The notes beneath the pieces were generated by a model that saw only the letters and a list, made by a program, of their open reading frames with translations, had not been told where the DNA came from and searched no databases. A stretch of DNA of 64,000 nt, from the IMG/VR virus record IMGVR_UViG_3300006752_000009; one strand, written 5' to 3'. This DNA is from a virus (Duplodnaviria; Caudoviricetes). Made by a program: the position numbers and the translations under genes. Each line of letters opens with the position of its first letter. Position 1 is the stretch's first letter. Positions 5,364-63,811 of the stretch are shown one piece after another.

Positions 5364-5379
5364 ATAGATAAGGGGTTAC
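5364..5379 (-). promoter_or_regulatory. Class-1 promoter GTAACCCCTTATCTAT
   Basis: 43 nt upstream of ATG 5320. Confidence 0.8.
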
Positions 5380-5666: not shown

Positions 5667-5682
5667 ATAGATAAGGGGTTAC
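5667..5682 (-). promoter_or_regulatory. Class-1 promoter GTAACCCCTTATCTAT
   Basis: 55 nt upstream of ATG 5611; back-to-back with the copy at 5736. Confidence 0.8.
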
Positions 5683-5735: not shown

Positions 5736-5751
5736 GTAACCCCTTATCTAT
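5736..5751 (+). promoter_or_regulatory. Class-1 promoter GTAACCCCTTATCTAT
   Basis: 56 nt upstream of ATG 5808. Confidence 0.8.
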
Positions 5752-7767: not shown

Positions 7768-8139
7768 ATGAGAAGTCTCCCTGTGTGGAGATGCGTGAAT
7801 AAGAAAACACCAATGAAATGGTTTTCCAAGTATGAGGAGTTCCTCACCGAGTTGGCTTATGAGTTAGGCTTTACCTCTATTGGCATAAGCGAGGTTGAGG
7901 AGATTAGTGAGAGCTTCTTTATCACTATGACATTTCGTCATAGTGAGGGAAAAACTTTCATGTTCAATCTTATGAGGAACAAAGATTTCGTTGGTGGTGG
8001 AATAAGTCTTAAAGTTAAGGGTGTGGAAACAGGCATCTTTGTGACAGCCTCCCCATCAAACGGATCACTCCAAGAATCAAGGACAGACACAGGGAACTGG
8101 TTTATCGAGCAGATCCGAGATCATTGGAACTTAGTTTAG
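7768..8139 (+). CDS. Hypothetical protein, tandem paralogue B
   Basis: Start moved to ATG 7768; WRCVNKKTPMKWFSKYEEFLTELAYELGF. Confidence 0.7.
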   Translation: MRSLPVWRCVNKKTPMKWFSKYEEFLTELAYELGFTSIGISEVEEISESFFITMTFRHSEGKTFMFNLMRNKDFVGGGISLKVKGVETGIFVTASPSNGSLQESRTDTGNWFIEQIRDHWNLV

Positions 8140-8712
8140 TCCAAACTTTTTCCTCGACACAGGGAGAAATCCAAATCCAGGTGAGATTGAATCACCAGTT
8201 GAGATTTGGTTGCCGACCTCATCAATCTTCATGTTGAAGGTAGCTTTCTCCACAGTTCCTGGAGAGAATGTGGCAACTTCTTCAATATGGTCAGCCCATG
8301 CGAGTAGATACCGACTGCCCTCAAAGGGTTCACCTTTAAAATCGGTTCGTAGTCCATAAGCGAACACAGGGATTTCTAGTTCATCGACAATCTTTGTCAG
8401 ACCGAGAACTTGTTCACGATTAAAGAACTGAGCTTCGTCAACAAAGACAACTTGGATGCCCTCAGAACCGACATCTTTCCTAAAGATCACCTCTTGCATA
8501 ATAATGCTGAAGGGATCTTCACCTGTTCCGACAGTGGTAGCTTTTTGTTCAAATCCGATCCTTGATGCGACCTTTGATTTTCCATCTCGACCTTGTGCCA
8601 CTTCGGGTACAAGGATGCGAAACTCGATTTCTCTCTCTTTACAGGAATGTGCCCTCATAATGAGATTTGCAGACTTTCCTGCATTGACTGTGGAGTAGAT
8701 AAAATTCAACAA
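8131..8712 (-). CDS. tdk: Thymidine kinase (type II)
   Basis: P-loop YSTVNAGKS, Walker B VFVDEAQF, YGLRTDFKGEPFEGSRYLLAWAD. Confidence 0.95.
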   Translation of the reverse strand: MLNFIYSTVNAGKSANLIMRAHSCKEREIEFRILVPEVAQGRDGKSKVASRIGFEQKATTVGTGEDPFSIIMQEVIFRKDVGSEGIQVVFVDEAQFFNREQVLGLTKIVDELEIPVFAYGLRTDFKGEPFEGSRYLLAWADHIEEVATFSPGTVEKATFNMKIDEVGNQISTGDSISPGFGFLPVSRKKFGLN

Positions 8713-12265: not shown

Positions 12266-12281
12266 GTAACCCCTTATTTAT
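12266..12281 (+). promoter_or_regulatory. Class-1 promoter GTAACCCCTTATTTAT
   Basis: 25 nt upstream of ATG 12307, in a divergent intergenic region. Confidence 0.75.
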
Positions 12282-47286: not shown

Positions 47287-47658
47287 CTATCGCTTACCAC
47301 CATCGTAAGCGACAGCATGACCCATACGGATCATCTCATCATTAAGAGACTCACCTAGCTCATTCATGTCCTCTTCATAAGCCCATAGGACACCGAGCCA
47401 TCGACCAAACTTACCTTTTTTAACGGTATGAACGACAACCGTTTTACCCTCGATGCGAGATTTAAGGTACTCTTTGGCTTCATATCCTCTAGCCTTTTCA
47501 TCTAGGTCTTTGGTTCTGATCTCTGGTGTGTTGATCCCCACCATACGAACCTTGACTCTCGCAAAGTGTTTCATGCCTTGATCTATCATGAGGGTGACGG
47601 TATCTCCGTCATATACTGATAAAACTTCTGCTTTGTAGTGATATAAATTAAGCGACAT
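47287..47658 (-). CDS. Thermonuclease (staphylococcal nuclease-like)
   Basis: VYDGDTV, VRMVGINTPE, GKFGRWLG, LNDEMIRMGHA. Confidence 0.93.
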   Translation of the reverse strand: MSLNLYHYKAEVLSVYDGDTVTLMIDQGMKHFARVKVRMVGINTPEIRTKDLDEKARGYEAKEYLKSRIEGKTVVVHTVKKGKFGRWLGVLWAYEEDMNELGESLNDEMIRMGHAVAYDGGKR

Positions 47659-50145: not shown

Positions 50146-50520
50146 ATGGGAGCAGGTGTAATGCTATTATGTGGAAACAAAACCCTCATAATGAAGAGGG
50201 ACCACTACAAACACGATAAATGGTCGGGTTATTGGAACTTTCCAGGAGGTCAAGGAGAGCCAAATGAAACGACCTATCAGACAGCTCTAAGAGAGACTGA
50301 AGAAGAGACAGGCATCACACCCGATCAATATAAAGTTGTAGATCATGTAGAGGACAAGATTTACACGATGTATGTCGGGGTGTGTAAGGAAGAGATCGTA
50401 CCTGTTTTAGATCACGAGCATACGGAGTGGGAGTGGATAGTCATCTCTAAGATACCTAGTATGACTCGTGAGATGCACCCCAAAGATTGGCGAGGGTTTA
50501 AGAAGTATTATCGGCTTTAG
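50146..50520 (+). CDS. NUDIX hydrolase
   Basis: Nudix box GGQGEPNETTYQTALRETEEETGI; WNFPGG; DHEHTEWEW. Confidence 0.92.
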   Translation: MGAGVMLLCGNKTLIMKRDHYKHDKWSGYWNFPGGQGEPNETTYQTALRETEEETGITPDQYKVVDHVEDKIYTMYVGVCKEEIVPVLDHEHTEWEWIVISKIPSMTREMHPKDWRGFKKYYRL

Positions 50521-50523
50521 AAA

Positions 50524-51621
50524 TCACCAGACTTGAAAGTGAACACCTAAAGACCAAGTGTTCGACCCATCAGTTCCGTAAACCCAACCAATACCAGGAG
50601 CGATGTTGAGGTTTTTACCCATGATGTAAGGATGCCATGTACCCATCAATCCTAGATACTGATTGGACTCGGTTAGAGAAAAGTTAGCACCTAAACGATA
50701 CTGACCTTTAACAAAGTTGACGAAACTCCCCCCTATAGATAGCCCAAACTCCCCCCCTTGATAAGTTGACCCTACAAGTAAGCTCGGCTCGAACATCTTT
50801 AGCGTTAACCCTAAACCACCTGCGGGTACTTGGGGTATATAGATGAGTTGAGGATCAAGATTGGGATCACCAGAATACATTTCGGACTCAAGACCCTCTA
50901 TATTAATAAACTTTCCTTGATCATCAAAGTACCCACCATAAATGTGTATGCCTTGGTTCTGTACAGCACCACTACCTAAACGAGATTGGTCTTCGCCATA
51001 ACTAATCGCTACTACTTTAAACGCTAAGTTGAAGTCTACACCCGAACCTTCACCAGTCCAAAGATTTCTACTTGTAAACGAGTAAACAGGTTTACCATGT
51101 AAACGGAAAGGTGATTCCCATGTAAACTTGAAAGGTTGACACCTTTCGTCTGTTCGGTTCTCACACCACTGTTGATCTTGTGTACTTACACCTCTCCAAT
51201 CTTGAGGTGGTGGGGTTGTGGGTTTTTCTCTGTCTGTGAAGTCTCCGATGCGTGTTACACCTGCTTCTACCCTTGACTCCATACGAACAAATCTTCGACT
51301 AATCGCATTGATTTTCGCTCCTGTCTCAGAGGTGTATCTGTCTATAGCCTGTTGTGTTCTTTGATCAAGACCACTAATGATTTCTGACGCTCTTTGTTCA
51401 AGCGTAGCTCGATCAACCATCTGAGACTGCACAGTTCCTAGTTTGGTATTTATCGCCGCAATTTTCGTAGCGTTATCATTAAGAACTCCATTTAGCTGAT
51501 CTTGGATCGTAGCGTCCATCTGTTGCATTTTGTAGACAGACCAAGCGTTGCCCCCTACAGAAACCAAGAACAGGCTCAATAGAGCGTAAATACCATATTT
51601 TAGGTTCGCCAACTCAACCAT
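50524..51621 (-). CDS. Envelope-spanning protein: N-terminal TM, coiled coil, C-terminal amphipathic beta-strands (spanin-like)
   Basis: YGIYALLSLFLVSVGGNAW; heptads at about aa 30-125; about six alternating beta-strands ending WSLGVHFQVW. Confidence 0.55.
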   Translation of the reverse strand: MVELANLKYGIYALLSLFLVSVGGNAWSVYKMQQMDATIQDQLNGVLNDNATKIAAINTKLGTVQSQMVDRATLEQRASEIISGLDQRTQQAIDRYTSETGAKINAISRRFVRMESRVEAGVTRIGDFTDREKPTTPPPQDWRGVSTQDQQWCENRTDERCQPFKFTWESPFRLHGKPVYSFTSRNLWTGEGSGVDFNLAFKVVAISYGEDQSRLGSGAVQNQGIHIYGGYFDDQGKFINIEGLESEMYSGDPNLDPQLIYIPQVPAGGLGLTLKMFEPSLLVGSTYQGGEFGLSIGGSFVNFVKGQYRLGANFSLTESNQYLGLMGTWHPYIMGKNLNIAPGIGWVYGTDGSNTWSLGVHFQVW

Positions 51622-51654
51622 AGTAAATCTCCTTCGTTTAGATGGAGATACTAT
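51620..51654 (-). promoter_or_regulatory. RBS/start-occluding hairpin
   Basis: AUAGU-AUCUCC ... GGAGAU-uu-ACUAU(G): buries GGAG and the AU of AUG. Confidence 0.6.
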
Positions 51655-51662
51655 ACCATGTC

Positions 51663-51995
51663 TTAATGAGCAAACACTCGTAGAACTGTTGTCCCCTCAA
51701 TAAGATAGAGTCCACCTAGTCGTAGATTTTGTGTAGTACGCTGAAGGCTGTGAACCATATCTTTGAAGGTATTCATCTCTTTTGGGTCTACTTTTAGTAC
51801 AATAAAACCACCATCGTGAATACCATCGTATGCAGACATAGTGGTCTTTTCCACAGAGATGAGATGAGGGTATGTGTGATCTTCAATGTAGTCTTGAGCA
51901 TGGAGTCCAAGCTCGTTGAGTTTTTCTTCAAAAGAAGCGTCCTGCATCGTGTTTACTTTTCTCGATCTACTCTCAAAGCGATTTATCATAGACAC
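51663..51995 (-). CDS. Hypothetical protein
   Basis: 110 aa. Confidence 0.6.
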   Translation of the reverse strand: MSMINRFESRSRKVNTMQDASFEEKLNELGLHAQDYIEDHTYPHLISVEKTTMSAYDGIHDGGFIVLKVDPKEMNTFKDMVHSLQRTTQNLRLGGLYLIEGTTVLRVFAH

Positions 51996-51996
51996 C

Positions 51997-52188
51997 CTAT
52001 TCTTTATCTTCTACGACAATGATCTCTCGTGTCGTCTTACCTGTGTTGTAGTCGATGTTCTCTCGAACCCGAAAGACAGGTTCGGGGGCAGGCTGTGGTG
52101 GTCGGCTGTAGTAGCGAACTTCATTTCGCCACCGACCACCAACTTCGACCCATACAGTCTCTCCATTTTCCATTCGTTTGTAAGGCAT
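51997..52188 (-). CDS. Small hypothetical protein (putative early operon)
   Basis: Start moved to ATG 52188 (SD AAAGGAG); MPYKRMENGETVWVEVGGRW. Confidence 0.6.
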   Translation of the reverse strand: MPYKRMENGETVWVEVGGRWRNEVRYYSRPPQPAPEPVFRVRENIDYNTGKTTREIIVVEDKE

Positions 52189-52202
52189 ATTCATTCTCCT
52201 TT

Positions 52203-52430
52203 TTAGATTGTTTTGATAACTTCCCACCAGCCTGGACCACATTGTTCGGTACGCTGTAGGACTAAGGTTTGTGAGCCAAGAGGTTCAAGGTATTCACGAT
52301 GTGTTTTGTCATATCCATCGCCACCTTTGGAGCGTAAGAGAGCGTCTGCTGAACAGACAAGCATCTCGTTAAGCCCAAAGTATTTAGCTCCGAATAATCC
52401 ACACTGATCGACATCTGTGTAGATCTGCAT
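52203..52430 (-). CDS. Small hypothetical protein (putative early operon)
   Basis: Start moved to ATG 52430 (SD AGGTGG); 75 aa. Confidence 0.6.
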   Translation of the reverse strand: MQIYTDVDQCGLFGAKYFGLNEMLVCSADALLRSKGGDGYDKTHREYLEPLGSQTLVLQRTEQCGPGWWEVIKTI

Positions 52431-52442
52431 ACTCGCCACCTG

Positions 52443-52835
52443 TCAATGCTGAAGCATTGAGAGGGGGATCTGCTGGATCACTTGGAAGATACACTCTTTA
52501 AAGTGTTCGACTACGAACTCTGTGTCGTTTCGTGAACTTGCTGAGGGCTGTATGATGACCACCACATCACCGTCAGAGAGGCTGACATTACCACCGACAC
52601 ACTCGCTCTTGGTCAGACCTTGAGCGAGAGCCACAGTAGACTCATGGCGAGGGTTGATAGCGTTGGAGAAGGTTATGTTCGACCCCATTTCAGCGAGACT
52701 GACGATAGCCTTAGCTTGGTCAACATCAATGTTGACTTTGTGGCATAGAGCTTCATCAATTAGCATCCGATTGCTGAAAGCCGAGCTGAGGATGATTCGT
52801 GATGTAGGTGCTTTGAAGATGTTTGCGATTGTCAT
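52443..52835 (-). CDS. DUF1874 / STIV B116 / AcrIII-1-like protein (candidate viral ring nuclease)
   Basis: ILSSAFSNRML, KVNID, SNAINPRHESTVAL, VSLSDGDVVVIIQ align colinearly with SIRV1 gp29 as recalled (YLANAFSINML, KVVID, INSIGHDSTIQL, IKLEKEDKLYVVQ). Confidence 0.7.
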   Translation of the reverse strand: MTIANIFKAPTSRIILSSAFSNRMLIDEALCHKVNIDVDQAKAIVSLAEMGSNITFSNAINPRHESTVALAQGLTKSECVGGNVSLSDGDVVVIIQPSASSRNDTEFVVEHFKECIFQVIQQIPLSMLQH

Positions 52836-52880
52836 GTGGTTCTCCTTTCAAGAGAGAGATTGTGTTGATGACATAAAGGT

Positions 52881-52896
52881 ATAAATAAGGGGTTAC
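52881..52896 (-). promoter_or_regulatory. Class-1 promoter GTAACCCCTTATTTAT
   Basis: 45 nt upstream of ATG 52835. Confidence 0.8.
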
Positions 52897-52956
52897 GCTT
52901 TGCCTTTTCTCATATAATAAGAGGATGCAAGCTGTACTTATAAGGAGGTGCGACAT

Positions 52957-55686
52957 ATGTTTGCCGATATGCTTGAGTCATTAAGACGACCAAATATACA
53001 ACCCAAGTTGTGGATGAAAGATTGCGAGTTAATCTTAGGCACAAAGGAAAACCTAGACCAATGTATTGATGAGTGTATCAACAGCGTTGCGTATGGGCTT
53101 GACCTTGAGACAACAGGTCTTGATAATCGTGTGTTCAACGGACGCACAAGAGATACGATTGTAGGGGTCTGCTTGTCAGCCCATAAGGATAAGGGGTACT
53201 ATTTCCCTGTTGGTCATCAAGAGGGTGTGGAACATAACATTCCTTGGAGATTGATGTATCCTGCACTTGAGCGTCTGCTTGACCTCTCTGTGAAAGCAGA
53301 GCCTATATTCCACAACGCCGCTTTTGACCAAGAGTTTTTGGAGTTCAACGAGTACAAGTCGGGTCTTGGTGAGGAGCGTTGGGACTCATTTGAATGGCAC
53401 GACACCTATATCATTCAGTATCTCTTGAACCCTCGTGAAAAAGGTGGTCGAGGACTAAAGCATTTAACTAATGCCCACCTTGAGCGAGAGATGATTGAGC
53501 TATCAGATCTTATGCCCGATGCTCCCGACAAGAACTACTCCAAACTTGATGTGAGTTGGGAACCATGTGTTTGGTATGCCGCTAGTGATGCAATGTGTAC
53601 GCTTGGACTATGGGAAGTACTTTATAAGAAGTACACCGAAGCTAAAGAACACACTAACTCGATGTATAAGTTAGAGCGTATGTGTCTACTTTCAACTCGT
53701 TGGATGCACAGAAATCGTGTCTACATTGATCGAGACACAGCCTTAAAGTATAGCCAACAGGGGCAGAAGCTATGGTTCGACTCTCTGATTGATGTCTATG
53801 ATGGAGCAAAAGAAATCTTAGGTCGAGACATTACCCCTAACTATGTTCGAGTCCTTAAAGGAGATCTGAAGGGAGAAAACAAGTTTAACCACATGGAAGT
53901 GGAGGGGATGAGCTATAAGACTCGTGTAGACGAAGCTCGTAAAGAAGCCTCTCGACTTTACCCCGATGAAAAGGGAGTAGTCACTAAGGCTGTGAAGATT
54001 ATCGGTAAGAGTGTAGGTACAGAGGAGATTGAGTTTCCACTTACTTATGACATCCTATCCCCTCAAAAGCTCGGCTTGTTATTTAGAGAGTTGAGTGTTC
54101 CAGGTCTTAAGGCGAGTGAAAAATCGGGTCAGGTCGTTACTTCCAAAGACATTCTTGAAGAGGTCATTGAGAAGGCTTCTGATGACTTTCCATTTATGGC
54201 TAAGGTTAAGACCTTTCGTGAGCTTGGGAAGGCAATGGGTCAGTATCTCATTCCATTTGTAGAAGATGTTGGACCAGATGGGACTCTCAAGCCTAAGTTT
54301 GATCAGTTTGCCGCTGACACAGGTCGTTTTTCATGTAAGACGAATAGTAAGCCTTGGAAAGTTAAAGATGGAGGGTGTCGTGTTCCCTTTCAAGGCATAC
54401 CTGCTACCTATGACCCAAATAAACCCGAAGCTGTTGCTAAGATGCGTTCTTGTGTGGCTGTGCGTGATGACGATTGGTGGTTAGCGGCCATTGATTACGC
54501 AGGTGTAGAGCTTCGGCTAGTTACGAACTTGAGTCTTGAGCCTAAGTGGATCAAGGCTTTCTTTGAATGTTCAGAATGTGGCACAGCTTACCCACAAGAA
54601 ATTCAAGAAGACGGATTCGCCAAAGCACCTCCATCTAACTGCGTGAACTGTGGGTCTGATAAGATTGGAGACTTACATACGATCACAGCAGTTGCGTTTT
54701 ATGGCGAGGGAGCTAAGAAGCGTGATGATTGGAAAGCGTTAAGAGGTAATGGTAAGGGTTGCAACTTTGCTTTGTCTTATGGTGGTACAGGTAAGGCTGT
54801 TCAGCGTACTATTGGTTGTTCAGCCGAAGAAGCAGATGAGAAGTTCAAGAAGTTTACATCAACTTATAGTGAACTGACTAAATGGTGGTCTAAGCAACAC
54901 AACTTTGGTCGTAAGCATGGATATGTAAAGACAGGTATGGGTCGTGTTCAACCATTACCCGACATCAAGTCTGATGACTTTAGGTTTAAATCCAAAGATG
55001 AGCGTAAGGCTGTTAATGGTCCAGTACAGGGTACGAGTGCTGATGTCACCAAGTTGGCGATGAGCTTCATCTACCAAGAGACTAAGAAGCGTGGTTGGCA
55101 AGATAAACTGATGATGATCTTGACCGTCCATGACGAAATCGTGTTCGAGATCCATAAGTCGATCTTGAAAGAGGCGATTGATATGATCTCCGAGATGATG
55201 ACTCGCAACAAAGTGATTAAGCGTCTAGGTTGGCGAGTGCCTTTACTTGTCGATGTTGAGCTTGGTAAGGATTGGACTGTTCCTTTTGATGTGAAAGATG
55301 TGATTGCAGGAGAAGCAGGGGATAAGGTCATTAACGCTAAGTACAAGTGCAAGGATTGTGGTGAAAAGACTCCTCGTGACCCTAAACCGACTGCGTGTAT
55401 GCACTGTGGTTCGACTAACATTAAAATTGATTACAAAGATGACTTCATTGCCAAGATCAAGAAGCAGACGGAACAACTTTATGCCGACTATGGGGTAAAT
55501 CCCGATGAAGTTGTCAAAGAGGTGGTTGTAGAAGACCCTGTTGAGAAATCGTCCGATAAGCCCACCTTTTGTGTTGAGGGACTGACGGAAGAAATCGCAA
55601 AAAACCTGTCCGATTGGATTAAATCGCAAGATGGTGAGTATGATGTGGTATATGAAGGACGGAGTATTATTGCATTATTAGAATGA
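52957..55686 (+). CDS. polA: Family A DNA polymerase with 3'-5' exonuclease and two zinc ribbons
   Basis: Start at ATG 52957 (AAGGAGG); Exo I DLETTG, Exo II HNAAFD, Exo III YAASDA; TGRFS; motif A IDYAGVELR, motif B RGNGKGCNFALSYG, motif C VHDEIVFE. Confidence 0.95.
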   Translation: MFADMLESLRRPNIQPKLWMKDCELILGTKENLDQCIDECINSVAYGLDLETTGLDNRVFNGRTRDTIVGVCLSAHKDKGYYFPVGHQEGVEHNIPWRLMYPALERLLDLSVKAEPIFHNAAFDQEFLEFNEYKSGLGEERWDSFEWHDTYIIQYLLNPREKGGRGLKHLTNAHLEREMIELSDLMPDAPDKNYSKLDVSWEPCVWYAASDAMCTLGLWEVLYKKYTEAKEHTNSMYKLERMCLLSTRWMHRNRVYIDRDTALKYSQQGQKLWFDSLIDVYDGAKEILGRDITPNYVRVLKGDLKGENKFNHMEVEGMSYKTRVDEARKEASRLYPDEKGVVTKAVKIIGKSVGTEEIEFPLTYDILSPQKLGLLFRELSVPGLKASEKSGQVVTSKDILEEVIEKASDDFPFMAKVKTFRELGKAMGQYLIPFVEDVGPDGTLKPKFDQFAADTGRFSCKTNSKPWKVKDGGCRVPFQGIPATYDPNKPEAVAKMRSCVAVRDDDWWLAAIDYAGVELRLVTNLSLEPKWIKAFFECSECGTAYPQEIQEDGFAKAPPSNCVNCGSDKIGDLHTITAVAFYGEGAKKRDDWKALRGNGKGCNFALSYGGTGKAVQRTIGCSAEEADEKFKKFTSTYSELTKWWSKQHNFGRKHGYVKTGMGRVQPLPDIKSDDFRFKSKDERKAVNGPVQGTSADVTKLAMSFIYQETKKRGWQDKLMMILTVHDEIVFEIHKSILKEAIDMISEMMTRNKVIKRLGWRVPLLVDVELGKDWTVPFDVKDVIAGEAGDKVINAKYKCKDCGEKTPRDPKPTACMHCGSTNIKIDYKDDFIAKIKKQTEQLYADYGVNPDEVVKEVVVEDPVEKSSDKPTFCVEGLTEEIAKNLSDWIKSQDGEYDVVYEGRSIIALLE

Positions 55687-56490: not shown

Positions 56491-56840
56491 AATATGAGCG
56501 TCTTGTTAAGCCATCTAAAGTCCTTCCTCCCGACCTTATAAGAGGCTATTATGAACAAGACCTTAAGAGTATTAAAGAGATCGAGGCTTGGCTCTCTAAG
56601 AATGGGTTGACCATATTATTTACGCTTGGGGAAGCCTACGGAAATGAGAGTGTTTATTTAGGTGAAGATAGTCGTGTCTATATAGGAACTGAAAAGATCC
56701 CTCGCATTGACTGGTTAAAGAAACAGATCTTAAGAGTAAGTACAGAGCTTTTACAACAAGCGATTAGAGAGGGTTGGACTCGCAAAAAAATGTTTGAAGT
56801 GCTTAAAAAAAGGTCTGAAGAAGAGAACAAGATAGTATAA
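56472..56840 (+). CDS. Hypothetical protein
   Basis: 122 aa. Confidence 0.6.
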   Translation: MARLSLKYERLVKPSKVLPPDLIRGYYEQDLKSIKEIEAWLSKNGLTILFTLGEAYGNESVYLGEDSRVYIGTEKIPRIDWLKKQILRVSTELLQQAIREGWTRKKMFEVLKKRSEEENKIV

Positions 56841-56902
56841 TGAGCGTGTTGAGTGGGCGATCCACTCATAAACTCAAACCATACACAACAGGAGAAATCA
56901 CT

Positions 56903-57091
56903 ATGAGTGGTATCGCTGATCGTATTGCAAATCTAAAGCAACTTCTCACTGACCTTGAGTCAGACGCAACCAAGACAGACAGTGGTAATAAGGCCGCAGG
57001 TACTCGTGTTCGTAAGACACTTCAAGAAGTGGTCAACGAGTCTAAAGAGATCCGTAAGGCTGTCATCGAGGCTCGTAATAGCGACAGCTAA
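56903..57091 (+). CDS. Histone H1-like Hc1-family protein
   Basis: Start moved to ATG 56903 (AGGAG); signature GNKAAGTRVRK..EIRK. Confidence 0.85.
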   Translation: MSGIADRIANLKQLLTDLESDATKTDSGNKAAGTRVRKTLQEVVNESKEIRKAVIEARNSDS

Positions 57092-59883: not shown

Positions 59884-60210
59884 TTAAAATCTAGGTTCTC
59901 TACCTCGACACCACTTAGACTGTTCCTCTGTCCAATAGAGCCTAGCCTTACCACGCTTCTTCTTTAGAGCCATTTCAGCTTTCATGGCTTCTGATCTGTT
60001 AGCGTATGGACCATAGGTACACATTAACACCCAAGGTCGGTGCTTTGATGTGTACTTAGCACCACCTTTGATTTCTCCCTGGTGCTGTCTCAGCCTACGG
60101 TTAACATCTGTAGTGCAACCCACATAGAAAAAACCTGGTAGTTGTTTACCTGTCTTAGCTGATCTTCTCATCTGCTGACTCTGAATAACATATACGACCC
60201 ATTCGCTCAT
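59884..60210 (-). CDS. GIY-YIG nuclease, SLX1-like
   Basis: Start moved to ATG 60210; VVYVIQS..FYVGCTTDVNRRLRQHQGEIKGGAKYT..RPW..EAMKAE. Confidence 0.88.
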   Translation of the reverse strand: MSEWVVYVIQSQQMRRSAKTGKQLPGFFYVGCTTDVNRRLRQHQGEIKGGAKYTSKHRPWVLMCTYGPYANRSEAMKAEMALKKKRGKARLYWTEEQSKWCRGREPRF

Positions 60211-60225
60211 TTGTAGTTCCTTTAT
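60211..60225 (+). promoter_or_regulatory. Class-2 promoter motif TTGTAGTTCCTTTAT
   Basis: 36 nt upstream of ATG 60262; followed by a 6-bp CTTTAG/CTAAAG stem (60232-60256) overlapping the SD. Confidence 0.55.
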
Positions 60226-60261
60226 ACACTGCTTTAGGTGATCTATTATACTAAAGGAAAT

Positions 60262-60717
60262 ATGATGAGAAATCATAACAAGATGGCAAGTCGAGTTGCA
60301 TATCGCTACATGAAACAAGCAGGTCTATTGAGTAAGATCGTAGATTTCTTTACCGAGAGTCCTCGTGAGAAAGAGAAGAAGCCTGTGTTTGATGTCGCTA
60401 AAGTCTGGGTGACAGCAGGTATCTATGGGGCTACTATGGGTTGGGTATCAAAGACTCTTAAGCTCAAAGGCAAAGATACTGCGATCATTGACTACAAAGG
60501 GGATAATCTCAAGCTCTCCATCTCACAAGAACGAGTTAGGGGGATGAAGGACAATGGGGGCATCAAAGGAGACTTCTTTGTAGTGATTTCTTTGACTGGT
60601 GTTGATAAGAACATACCTAAGAGTCAGTTAGATAAAGTCTTAGCAGGTATTCTTAGAGAGGTTCGGCTTGAACCCGACTTTACCGAAACTCCTGTTGAAC
60701 ACCCCAATATGCGTTAG
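60262..60717 (+). CDS. Hypothetical protein with RVAYRY leader
   Basis: Start moved to ATG 60262; MMRNHNKMASRVAYRYMKQAGLLSK. Confidence 0.7.
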   Translation: MMRNHNKMASRVAYRYMKQAGLLSKIVDFFTESPREKEKKPVFDVAKVWVTAGIYGATMGWVSKTLKLKGKDTAIIDYKGDNLKLSISQERVRGMKDNGGIKGDFFVVISLTGVDKNIPKSQLDKVLAGILREVRLEPDFTETPVEHPNMR

Positions 60718-62924: not shown

Positions 62925-62940
62925 ATAGATAAGGGGTTAC
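62925..62940 (-). promoter_or_regulatory. Class-1 promoter GTAACCCCTTATCTAT
   Basis: 51 nt upstream of ATG 62873. Confidence 0.8.
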
Positions 62941-63795: not shown

Positions 63796-63811
63796 GTAAC
63801 CCCTTATCTAT
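63796..63811 (+). promoter_or_regulatory. Class-1 promoter GTAACCCCTTATCTAT
   Basis: 51 nt upstream of ATG 63863. Confidence 0.8.

What the first reader, a model, noticed from the sequence alone, without database searches (positions are those of the whole stretch)
52443..52896. Divergent AcrIII-1 (DUF1874) ring-nuclease homologue under a class-1 promoter
Seen: colinear matches to SIRV1 gp29 as recalled from memory, covering the AFS..ML N-terminal strand, the His motif (NPRH64EST vs IGH47DST) and the L..GD...Q strand. Known: DUF1874/AcrIII-1 proteins degrade cA4 and neutralise type III CRISPR signalling. Differences: the GH becomes PRH with an insertion, the NR arginine position reads VGG, and the distal R..E loop is shifted (SSRNDTE). 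Inference: an early anti-type-III factor, possibly with changed specificity (cA3, cA6 or CBASS-type messengers) or acting as a nucleotide sponge.
Basis: partly seen in the sequence, partly recalled or inferred. Interest (0 to 1): 0.85.

Follow-up and report, generated by a model that had tools for sequence, protein, structure and literature searches.

The report
Divergent viral ring-nuclease homologue, marine jumbo phage
A small gene next to the DNA polymerase of an uncultured marine giant phage encodes a very divergent relative of the viral enzyme AcrIII-1, which destroys the cyclic-nucleotide alarm signal of type III CRISPR. Standard family databases miss it, and part of its active site has been rebuilt, so its substrate needs testing.

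Summary

- Kept: the AFS..M strand, catalytic His64 (=H47), Ser66/Thr67 and Gln96.
- Replaced: Asn8 becomes Ser18, and Asn65-Arg66 becomes Gly-Gly-Phe/Asn. Both original residues matter for Crn2 activity.
- The lid Arg/Glu pair is kept but shifted.
- New invariant residues appear, including Arg23; Arg63 is nearly invariant.

A homodimer through strand beta2 is predicted (0.82, best control 0.00).

The "class-1" motif GTAACCCCTTATYTAT is real: 12 copies against 0.04 expected, and one lies 46-61 nt upstream of this ATG. Early timing is not shown.

The family occurs only on marine phage contigs of up to 376 kb, always divergent from polA.

The most likely function is a His-dependent cyclic-oligoadenylate ring nuclease. 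Substrate and anti-CRISPR role are untested. I class it as a new variant of a known kind, of moderate interest.

The parts
52443..52835 (-). CDS of a 130-aa DUF1874-fold protein (stop codon included). It is a divergent AcrIII-1/Crn2-like ring-nuclease homologue.
   Evidence: ORF list. 72 homologues in metagenomes. AF2 model pLDDT 93.5. Foldseek and VIA matches only to DUF1874 structures. hhalign 98.4% against PF08960 members.
52644..52646 (-). Codon of His64, the equivalent of the catalytic general acid His47 of SIRV1 gp29 and His495 of Csx1-Crn2.
   Evidence: Invariant in the 35-sequence alignment A2. Aligned to H47 by HMMER and hhalign. Role of H47/H495 from bioRxiv 10.1101/778746 and PMC11317161.
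52518..52532 (-). Codons of the lid motif R102-N-D-T-E106. This is the shifted counterpart of R85..E88 in the mobile loop that closes over cA4.
   Evidence: R102 and E106 are invariant in A2. E106 is invariant and R102 nearly so in the wider family A3. The residue-by-residue equivalence with R85/E88 is not fixed by hhalign.
52842..52846 (-). Shine-Dalgarno AGGAG, with 6 nt between it and the ATG.
   Evidence: Sequence read directly. The same GAAAGGAGAAC context follows other copies of the motif.
52881..52896 (-). 'Class-1' promoter-like motif GTAACCCCTTATTTAT, 46-61 nt upstream of the ATG.
   Evidence: 12 matches in the window against 0.04 expected. 10 of 12 precede an SD plus start codon. Exact copy at the orthologous place in L002, L004 and L005, with diverged variants in L006 and L008. 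It does not fit sigma-70.
52909..52918 (-). Conserved block ATTATATGAG (TCATATAAT on the + strand) in the divergent intergenic region shared with polA. It may be the -10 element of the polA promoter.
   Evidence: It is the only block invariant across four orthologous intergenic regions. It is not enriched in the window. Function is inferred.
52203..52430 (-). Co-oriented 75-aa ORF 12 nt downstream, conserved in the same position in all related phage contigs examined.
   Evidence: Synteny. 79% identity to the L008 orthologue. AF2 pLDDT 92.3 with no significant solved-structure match.

Best explanation
The gene encodes a homodimeric DUF1874-fold enzyme of the AcrIII-1/Crn2 kind. Two subunits pair through strand beta2 and form a basket-shaped pocket on the two-fold axis. 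That pocket would bind a cyclic oligoadenylate, most likely cA4. His64, stabilised by lid residue Glu106, would act as general acid in a metal-independent cleavage by in-line 2'-OH attack. Lid residue Arg102 would close over the ligand. By destroying the second messenger, the phage would switch off cOA-activated effectors of type III CRISPR in its unknown marine host.

Shown here: fold, family-level homology, conservation of the His/Ser/Thr/Gln/Arg/Glu set, a predicted dimer, and a phage-specific promoter-like motif upstream.

Inferred: ligand, chemistry, timing and biological role.

The scissile-phosphate clamp of canonical enzymes (Asn8, Arg66) is replaced. Invariant Arg23 and nearly invariant Arg63 may take over that role.
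For: Fold:
- The AF2 model (pLDDT 93.5, pTM 0.88, no templates) matches only DUF1874 structures.
- AFDB and BFVD hits are also DUF1874 proteins.

Sequence:
- The family profile's top PDB hit is STIV B116 (E 0.053).
- hhalign against gp29 alone gives E 4.6e-6.
- hhalign against 17 PF08960 proteins gives 98.4-98.6% probability, E 6e-15 to 9e-15.

Residues:
- H64, S66, T67, S21, Q96, R102 and E106 are invariant or nearly so across the family.
- They align with H47, S49, T50, S11 and Q81, which contact cA4 in gp29 (bioRxiv 10.1101/778746).

Dimer:
- ipSAE is 0.82, best of 3 controls 0.00. The mark was reached by 20 of 30 proteins solved as pairs of one chain and by 1 of 23 solved as single chains. 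These counts hold only roughly, because my own alignment was used.
- The three runs agree in at least 97% of contacts, and partner pLDDT is at least 90.
- The interface (residues 19-23, 27-35, 94, 96) uses beta2, as described for Crn2/AcrIII-1 (PMC11317161). This pass may reflect likeness to solved DUF1874 dimers.

Context:
- The family is found only on marine phage contigs.
- Type III CRISPR is known to act against jumbo phages (bioRxiv 10.1101/2022.06.20.496707).
Against: - Two residues that hold the scissile phosphate are replaced throughout the family. N8 (N451 in Crn2) becomes S18, and R66 (R514) becomes GG(F/N). Their mutation markedly lowers Crn2 activity (PMC11317161).
- Pfam's PF08960 model, NCBIfam and PHROGs do not recognise the protein or its distant relatives.
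- No member was found in a type III CRISPR locus or in any of 185,579 species genomes. The single hit there is a chimeric contig end.
- The host is unknown, so whether it has a cOA-signalling system is unknown.
- The gene is kept in one syntenic position next to polA in every related contig examined. That is unlike typical variable anti-defence islands.
- In its native virus, the DUF1874 protein SIRV2 gp37 is middle/late and gives no anti-CRISPR effect (bioRxiv 10.1101/2023.01.10.523387).
Confidence: 0.5

Rival explanations
1. The fold, dimer and His-dependent chemistry are the same, but the ligand is different. Candidates are cA3, cA6, a CBASS cyclic tri- or dinucleotide, or another oligonucleotide signal. 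The rebuilt pocket (S18, R23, R63, GGF) would recognise a ring of different size or base content.
For: - The phosphate-clamping residues N8 and N65-R66, invariant in 17 canonical proteins, are replaced in the whole family.
- New invariant residues appear near the active site: R23, N58, P97 and the NPR insertion before the His.
- The lid is longer and its R/E spacing has changed.
- Viral enzymes against cA3 and cA6 are expected but, per the 2021 review PMC8284326, had not been described.
- Another first-reader note (e1-5373616, untested) reports a 2H phosphodiesterase in the same genome, suggesting interest in nucleotide signals.
Against: - Five of the side chains that contact cA4 in gp29 are kept (S11, H47, S49, T50, Q81 equivalents).
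- The dimer geometry is predicted to be the same.
- All characterised DUF1874 enzymes are cA4-specific.
- No structure-based estimate of pocket size could be made here.
Confidence: 0.25
2. The protein does not degrade an immune signal in vivo. The DUF1874 scaffold serves another role in the replication module. It could bind or inhibit a host protein, as SIRV2 gp37 inhibits the lysine methyltransferase SiL_1451. It could also cleave some RNA or nucleotide substrate unrelated to defence.
For: - The syntenic position beside polA is fixed in all related contigs.
- Divergence is moderate between the window and L008: 66% identity, against 87% for polA and 54% for the 365-aa neighbour.
- There is no recognisable anti-defence island around it.
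- Native-system work shows a viral DUF1874 protein without Acr activity and with a second function (bioRxiv 10.1101/2023.01.10.523387).
Against: - The residues under the strictest conservation are the catalytic and ligand-contact set, not a surface patch.
- SIRV2 gp37 still cleaves cA4 and protects when expressed early.
- SiL_1451 homologues are restricted to Crenarchaeota, according to the same paper.
Confidence: 0.2
3. A non-catalytic sponge that sequesters a cyclic nucleotide in the dimer pocket without cleaving it.
For: - Loss of the N8 and R66 equivalents could cripple catalysis while binding is kept. The Crn2 S452Y/R514A mutant still binds cA4 with KD of about 334 nM (PMC11317161).
- Sponges are a common phage strategy (PMC13148439 discussion).
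Against: - H64 and E106 are invariant and R102 nearly so across a family that has diverged to about 31% identity. That is hard to explain without catalysis.
- Type III systems make large amounts of cOA, which makes sponging ineffective (argument in PMC13148439).
Confidence: 0.05

Closest known systems
AcrIII-1 viral ring nuclease (SIRV1 gp29, PDB 6SCF/2X4I; STIV B116, PDB 2J85; Pfam PF08960 STIV_B116-like, formerly DUF1874)
   Same: - Same predicted beta2-mediated homodimer.
- Same N-terminal AFS..M strand, catalytic His followed by x-S-T, and Gln at the end of beta4.
- A mobile lid carrying an Arg and a Glu.
- Small size (130 against 114-116 aa) and viral origin.
   Different: - About 20% identity, and not detected by the Pfam, NCBIfam or PHROG models.
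- N8 becomes S18 and N13 becomes R23. The 'G-H' becomes 'N-P-R-H' (2-residue insertion), and N65-R66 becomes G-G-F/N.
- The lid R/E pair is shifted by 2-3 positions, with R-x3-E instead of R-x2-E.
- There are 10-12 extra N-terminal residues and a conserved C-terminal P-L-S-M-L tail.
- The host range is uncultured marine jumbo phages rather than archaeal viruses or Firmicute phages.
Crn2 domain of Csx1-Crn2 (Marinitoga, PDB 8Y7F/8Y7G)
   Same: - The His (H495) and lid Glu (E536) equivalents are kept.
   Different: - Crn2 is cellular, fused to a CARF-HEPN effector and located in a type III locus. This protein is stand-alone and found only in phages.
- The N451 and R514 equivalents, shown by mutagenesis to matter in Crn2 (PMC11317161), are absent here.
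Csx16/Csx20 candidate ring nucleases

Membership tests
DUF1874 / STIV_B116-like (PF08960) superfamily | Characteristic alpha/beta fold: a five-stranded sheet with three helices on one face. | tested here: met
   [not shown]
DUF1874 / STIV_B116-like (PF08960) superfamily | Score above the curated threshold of the Pfam model (26 bits). | tested here: not met
   No hit at E<=10 for this protein or for 16 relatives. The positive control, SIRV1 gp29, scores 100.7 bits. A home-made HMM of 17 members gives 20.2 bits, E 8e-6 in the window.
DUF1874 / STIV_B116-like (PF08960) superfamily | Statistically significant sequence-profile homology to bona fide members. | tested here: met
   hhalign of A3 against A5: 98.4% probability, E 9e-15, 86 columns. 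Global mode: 98.6%, E 5.8e-15. A2 against A5: 97.2%, E 3.5e-11.
AcrIII-1 / Crn2 ring nucleases | Catalytic histidine (H47 of gp29, H495 of Crn2) followed by x-S-T. | tested here: met
   H64-E-S66-T67 is invariant in A2, nearly invariant in A3, and aligned to H47-D-S49-T50.
AcrIII-1 / Crn2 ring nucleases | Asn8 (N451) and Arg66 (R514), which stabilise the scissile phosphate. Both are invariant in canonical members. | tested here: not met
   The aligned positions are S18 and G81-G82-(F/N)83, with no basic residue in 78-85. Invariance of N8 and N65-R66 in 17 canonical proteins is shown. Their functional role is from PMC11317161.
AcrIII-1 / Crn2 ring nucleases | Mobile lid loop after beta4 with a conserved Arg (R85) and Glu (E88). 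| tested here: inconclusive
   An invariant R102 and E106 lie in the loop after Q96. They are shifted (Q+6 and Q+10 against Q+4 and Q+7), and hhalign does not pair them with R85 and E88.
AcrIII-1 / Crn2 ring nucleases | Homodimer through beta2, with the ligand pocket on the two-fold axis. | tested here: met
   This is a prediction only. ipSAE is 0.82, best of 3 controls 0.00. The mark was reached by 20 of 30 proteins solved as pairs of one chain and 1 of 23 solved as single chains, and these counts hold only roughly because my own alignment was used. Runs agree in at least 97% of contacts and pLDDT is at least 90. The interface is residues 19-23, 27-35, 94, 96, 118 and 120. The pass may stem from likeness to solved DUF1874 dimers.
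AcrIII-1 / Crn2 ring nucleases | Metal-independent cleavage of cA4 to A2>P. | not testable with these tools
   This needs a biochemical assay.
Anti-CRISPR (functional class) | Expressed early enough, in a host with a cOA-signalling type III system, to relieve immunity. | not testable with these tools
   The host is unknown and no RNA run is listed. The upstream motif differs from the late-type motif, but its timing is unknown.

The most novel reading that the evidence does not exclude
This clade could be the first DUF1874-fold ring nuclease with a non-cA4 specificity. Candidate substrates are cA3, cA6 or a CBASS-type cyclic oligonucleotide. The change would come from replacing the canonical Asn8/Arg66 phosphate clamp with Ser18 plus the new arginines Arg23 and Arg63. 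The gene would be kept as a core gene by a whole lineage of marine jumbo phages. That would reveal both a new anti-defence specificity and the dominant signalling defence of their uncultured hosts.
Probability: 0.2. Interest if true: 0.8.

Novelty: new variant of a known kind. Interest (0 to 1): 0.5.

Why it matters
An HMM search recorded AcrIII-1 in only 36 of 28,114 phage genomes (bioRxiv 10.1101/2024.09.24.614671). This result shows that whole clades of the fold escape such HMM censuses. One of those clades is a conserved gene of abundant uncultured marine jumbo phages.

If the protein is active on cA4, cOA signalling would be a relevant defence in the marine hosts of these phages. It would also fit the view that type III CRISPR is the system that matters against jumbo phages.

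If the rebuilt active site changes specificity, this would be the long-expected viral enzyme against another cyclic oligonucleotide. It would also be a useful reagent for dissecting such pathways.

The family also gives a natural experiment on which AcrIII-1 active-site residues are dispensable.

Tried and rejected
Searches that found nothing:
- Single-sequence searches with Pfam, PHROGs, NCBIfam and phmmer against PDB gave nothing meaningful.
- tblastn against 50,697 GenBank phage records gave no match.
- The ESM Atlas feature search gave no usable lead.
- A sigma-70 promoter and terminator scan of 51600-53100 found nothing in the intergenic region.
- My first guesses at a repeated motif (CCTTATTTATACC, TCATATAATAAGAGG, ATTATATGAR) were not enriched. 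The true motif emerged only after listing all upstream regions.

Searches limited by the tools or data:
- The search for related loci with the wide alignment A3 failed because it had no conserved stretch.
- With A2, the only hit in species genomes was the end of a Myxococcales MAG contig. There the C-terminal half of this protein is fused to a 4HBT thioesterase N-terminus (P0073). I read this as an assembly chimera.
- P0074 (1402 aa, 20 repeats) is a spurious low-complexity match.
- Distant relatives (P0078, P0081, P0084) lie on short marine contigs with no CRISPR genes nearby, so there is no guilt-by-association evidence.
- No whole genome is held for the window.
- No RNA holder is listed among the sequencing runs, so expression and timing could not be examined.
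I therefore could not superpose on the cA4 complex or measure the pocket.
- The paper on divergent viral phosphodiesterases concerns 2H enzymes, not this fold.

Full report
**What is there**

The finding covers a minus-strand ORF at 52443-52835 (130 aa) plus 61 nt upstream. The start is an ATG preceded by AGGAG. The gene points away from a family-A DNA polymerase gene (52948-55686 +; PF00476 E 8e-64). Small co-oriented ORFs follow it.

On its own the protein matches nothing in Pfam, PHROGs or NCBIfam, and phmmer against PDB sequences gives nothing meaningful. It has 72 homologues in metagenomic protein collections, all unannotated. They sit on contigs of up to 376 kb. The sources are marine metagenomes and viromes, including TARA, JGI marine viral communities and IMG/VR. 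The window therefore comes from an uncultured marine jumbo phage. The nearest polA in GenBank phages is a 485-kb uncultured phage at 45.6% identity.

**Is it a DUF1874/AcrIII-1 homologue?**

Yes. Four independent lines support this.

1. *Family profile against PDB.* A profile of 35 family members (A2) has STIV B116 (2J85) as its top PDB hit. The alignment is colinear over residues 12-97 and pairs the AFS..ML strand and the His. The E-value is only 0.053.
2. *Structure.* A no-template AlphaFold2 model is confident (pLDDT 93.5, pTM 0.88).
   - Foldseek agrees, with E 6e-7 to 1e-5. So do AFDB clusters named DUF1874 and BFVD viral models.
3. *Profile-profile comparison.* I fetched the real SIRV1 gp29 (ORF114) and confirmed that it hits PF08960 at 5.5e-29. 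I then collected 17 true PF08960 proteins. Comparison with this family gives 98.4% probability and E 9e-15. Global mode gives 98.6%.
4. *Blind test in the window.* An HMM of those 17 canonical proteins was run without filters against all 341 stop-to-stop ORFs of at least 50 aa in the window. It picks this ORF alone (E 8e-6; next best 0.4).

Neither this protein nor its more distant relatives (P0075-P0087, down to about 31% identity) reach any reportable score with Pfam's own model. This is therefore a sister clade that family databases do not see.

**Active-site comparison**

From the gp29-cA4 structure (bioRxiv 10.1101/778746):
- H47 is the general acid.
- R85 on the mobile loop 82-94 locks the closed dimer.
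- N8, S11, N13, S49, T50, R66 and Q81 contact cA4.

From Csx1-Crn2 (PMC11317161):
- N451 (=N8) and R514 (=R66) hold the scissile phosphate.
- E536 (=E88) stabilises the His.
- The N451A, H495A, R514A and E536A mutants all lose much of their activity.

In the present family:

| Status | Residues here | Canonical equivalents |
|---|---|---|
| Kept | A19-F20-S21, M24, H64, S66, T67, Q96 | A9-F10-S11, M14, H47, S49, T50, Q81 |
| Replaced in every member | S18 | N8 |
| Replaced in the close family | R23 (invariant there) | N13 |
| Replaced | G81-G82-F/N83 | N65-R66 |
| Changed | N-P-R-H | G-H |
| New conserved residues | N58, R63, P97 | none |

The lid keeps E106 as invariant and R102 as nearly invariant. 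They sit at Q+6 and Q+10, against Q+4 and Q+7 in gp29.

The pattern is a retained general acid and lid with a rebuilt phosphate clamp. It is compatible with a working ring nuclease that uses different arginines. It also leaves room for a changed substrate.

**Quaternary structure**

A two-copy prediction passes. The score is 0.82 and the best of 3 controls is 0.00. The mark was reached by 20 of 30 proteins solved as pairs of one chain and by 1 of 23 solved as single chains. These counts hold only roughly, because my own alignment was used. The three runs agree in at least 97% of contacts and partner pLDDT is at least 90.

The interface pairs strand 28-35 antiparallel across the two-fold axis. 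It brings A19-R23, I94 and Q96 of both subunits together. That matches the beta2-mediated, basket-shaped dimer described for Crn2/AcrIII-1 (PMC11317161). Because similar complexes are solved, this shows likeness rather than proving that the protein dimerises.

**The promoter claim**

The sigma-70 scan finds nothing in the 112-nt divergent intergenic region.
- It has 12 matches with up to 2 mismatches, against 0.04 expected.
- Ten of the 12 lie 17-57 nt before an SD plus start codon on the same strand.
- The copy at 52881-52896 (-) is exact.
- It is conserved at the orthologous site of close relatives and drifts in more distant ones. That fits recognition by a phage-encoded factor.

The motif is real and promoter-like. 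Calling it 'early' is an inference.

Timing matters. SIRV2 gp37, a close homologue of gp29, cleaves cA4 but gives no anti-CRISPR effect in native infection because it is a middle/late gene. It has a second role as an inhibitor of a host lysine methyltransferase (bioRxiv 10.1101/2023.01.10.523387).

**Context and distribution**

In every related contig examined the gene lies divergent from polA and is followed by a conserved 75-aa ORF. Between the window and L008, identities are:

| Protein | Identity |
|---|---|
| polA | 87% |
| 75-aa ORF | 79% |
| This protein | 66% |
| 365-aa neighbour | 54% |

So it is a retained, moderately fast-evolving gene rather than a sporadic island gene.

No member was found in 185,579 species genomes, apart from one chimeric contig end. 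None of the distant relatives examined sits near CRISPR genes. The host is unknown, so whether it uses cOA signalling cannot be said.

**Verdict**

The functional part (early, anti-type-III, altered specificity or sponge) remains inference.

My odds are:
- 0.5 for a cOA (most likely cA4) ring nuclease acting against type III signalling.
- 0.25 for the same chemistry on another cyclic oligonucleotide.
- 0.2 for a role unrelated to immune signals.
- 0.05 for a sponge.

AcrIII-1 in bacteriophages is known, so this is not a new kind of system. It is a new, database-invisible variant with a remodelled active site, conserved across a lineage of marine jumbo phages. I found no paper describing it.

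Noticed in passing
[not shown]
   Followed up: partly
window 4463-63811 (12 sites; e.g. 5364-5379 -, 5667-5682 -, 5736-5751 +, 12266-12281 +, 62925-62940 -, 63796-63811 +): The phage-specific promoter-like motif GTAACCCCTTATYTAT heads small non-structural genes. It is often followed by a GAAAGGAGAAC-type SD. It does not fit sigma-70, which suggests a phage-encoded or phage-modified RNA polymerase specificity.
   Followed up: partly
window 52909-52918; L004, L006, L008 orthologous sites: ATTATATGA (TCATATAAT on the + strand) is the only block invariant in the polA/DUF1874 divergent intergenic region across four diverged phages. It may be the -10 element for polA.
   Followed up: partly
L015 (PBTG01000049.1, Myxococcales MAG) 8001-8192; protein P0073: At the end of a contig in a bacterial MAG, a 118-aa 'protein' joins a 4HBT thioesterase N-terminus (PF03061) to the C-terminal half of this phage protein. 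It is almost certainly an assembly chimera. It is the only 'cellular' hit of the family.
   Followed up: partly
window 52948-55686 (+): The family-A DNA polymerase carries a 3'-5' exonuclease domain. It also has zinc-ribbon-like segments (HypA/Zn_ribbon hits at residues 795-829 and a weak MCM_OB hit at 529-571). It is 87% identical across the clade.
   Followed up: no
window 56840-57091 (+); 50146-50520 (+); 47287-47658 (-); 59884-60318 (-): The neighbourhood also encodes a chlamydial Hc1-type histone-like protein (PF07432, 2e-19), a NUDIX hydrolase (1e-17), an SNase-type endonuclease (phrog_452, 1e-35) and a GIY-YIG nuclease.
   Followed up: no
window 14287-40338 (-): A run of giant ORFs (1799, 2038, 1093, 1875 and 1090 aa) has no Pfam match, except a Baseplate_J domain in the last one. 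They are presumably baseplate or tail-fibre proteins of the jumbo virion.
   Followed up: no
BFVD hits: Erwinia jumbo phages (vB_EamM_Kwan, phiEaH2) have several uncharacterised proteins that match the DUF1874-like model weakly (TM about 0.5, E 1e-4 to 1e-2). Divergent copies of this fold may be common in jumbo phages.
   Followed up: no
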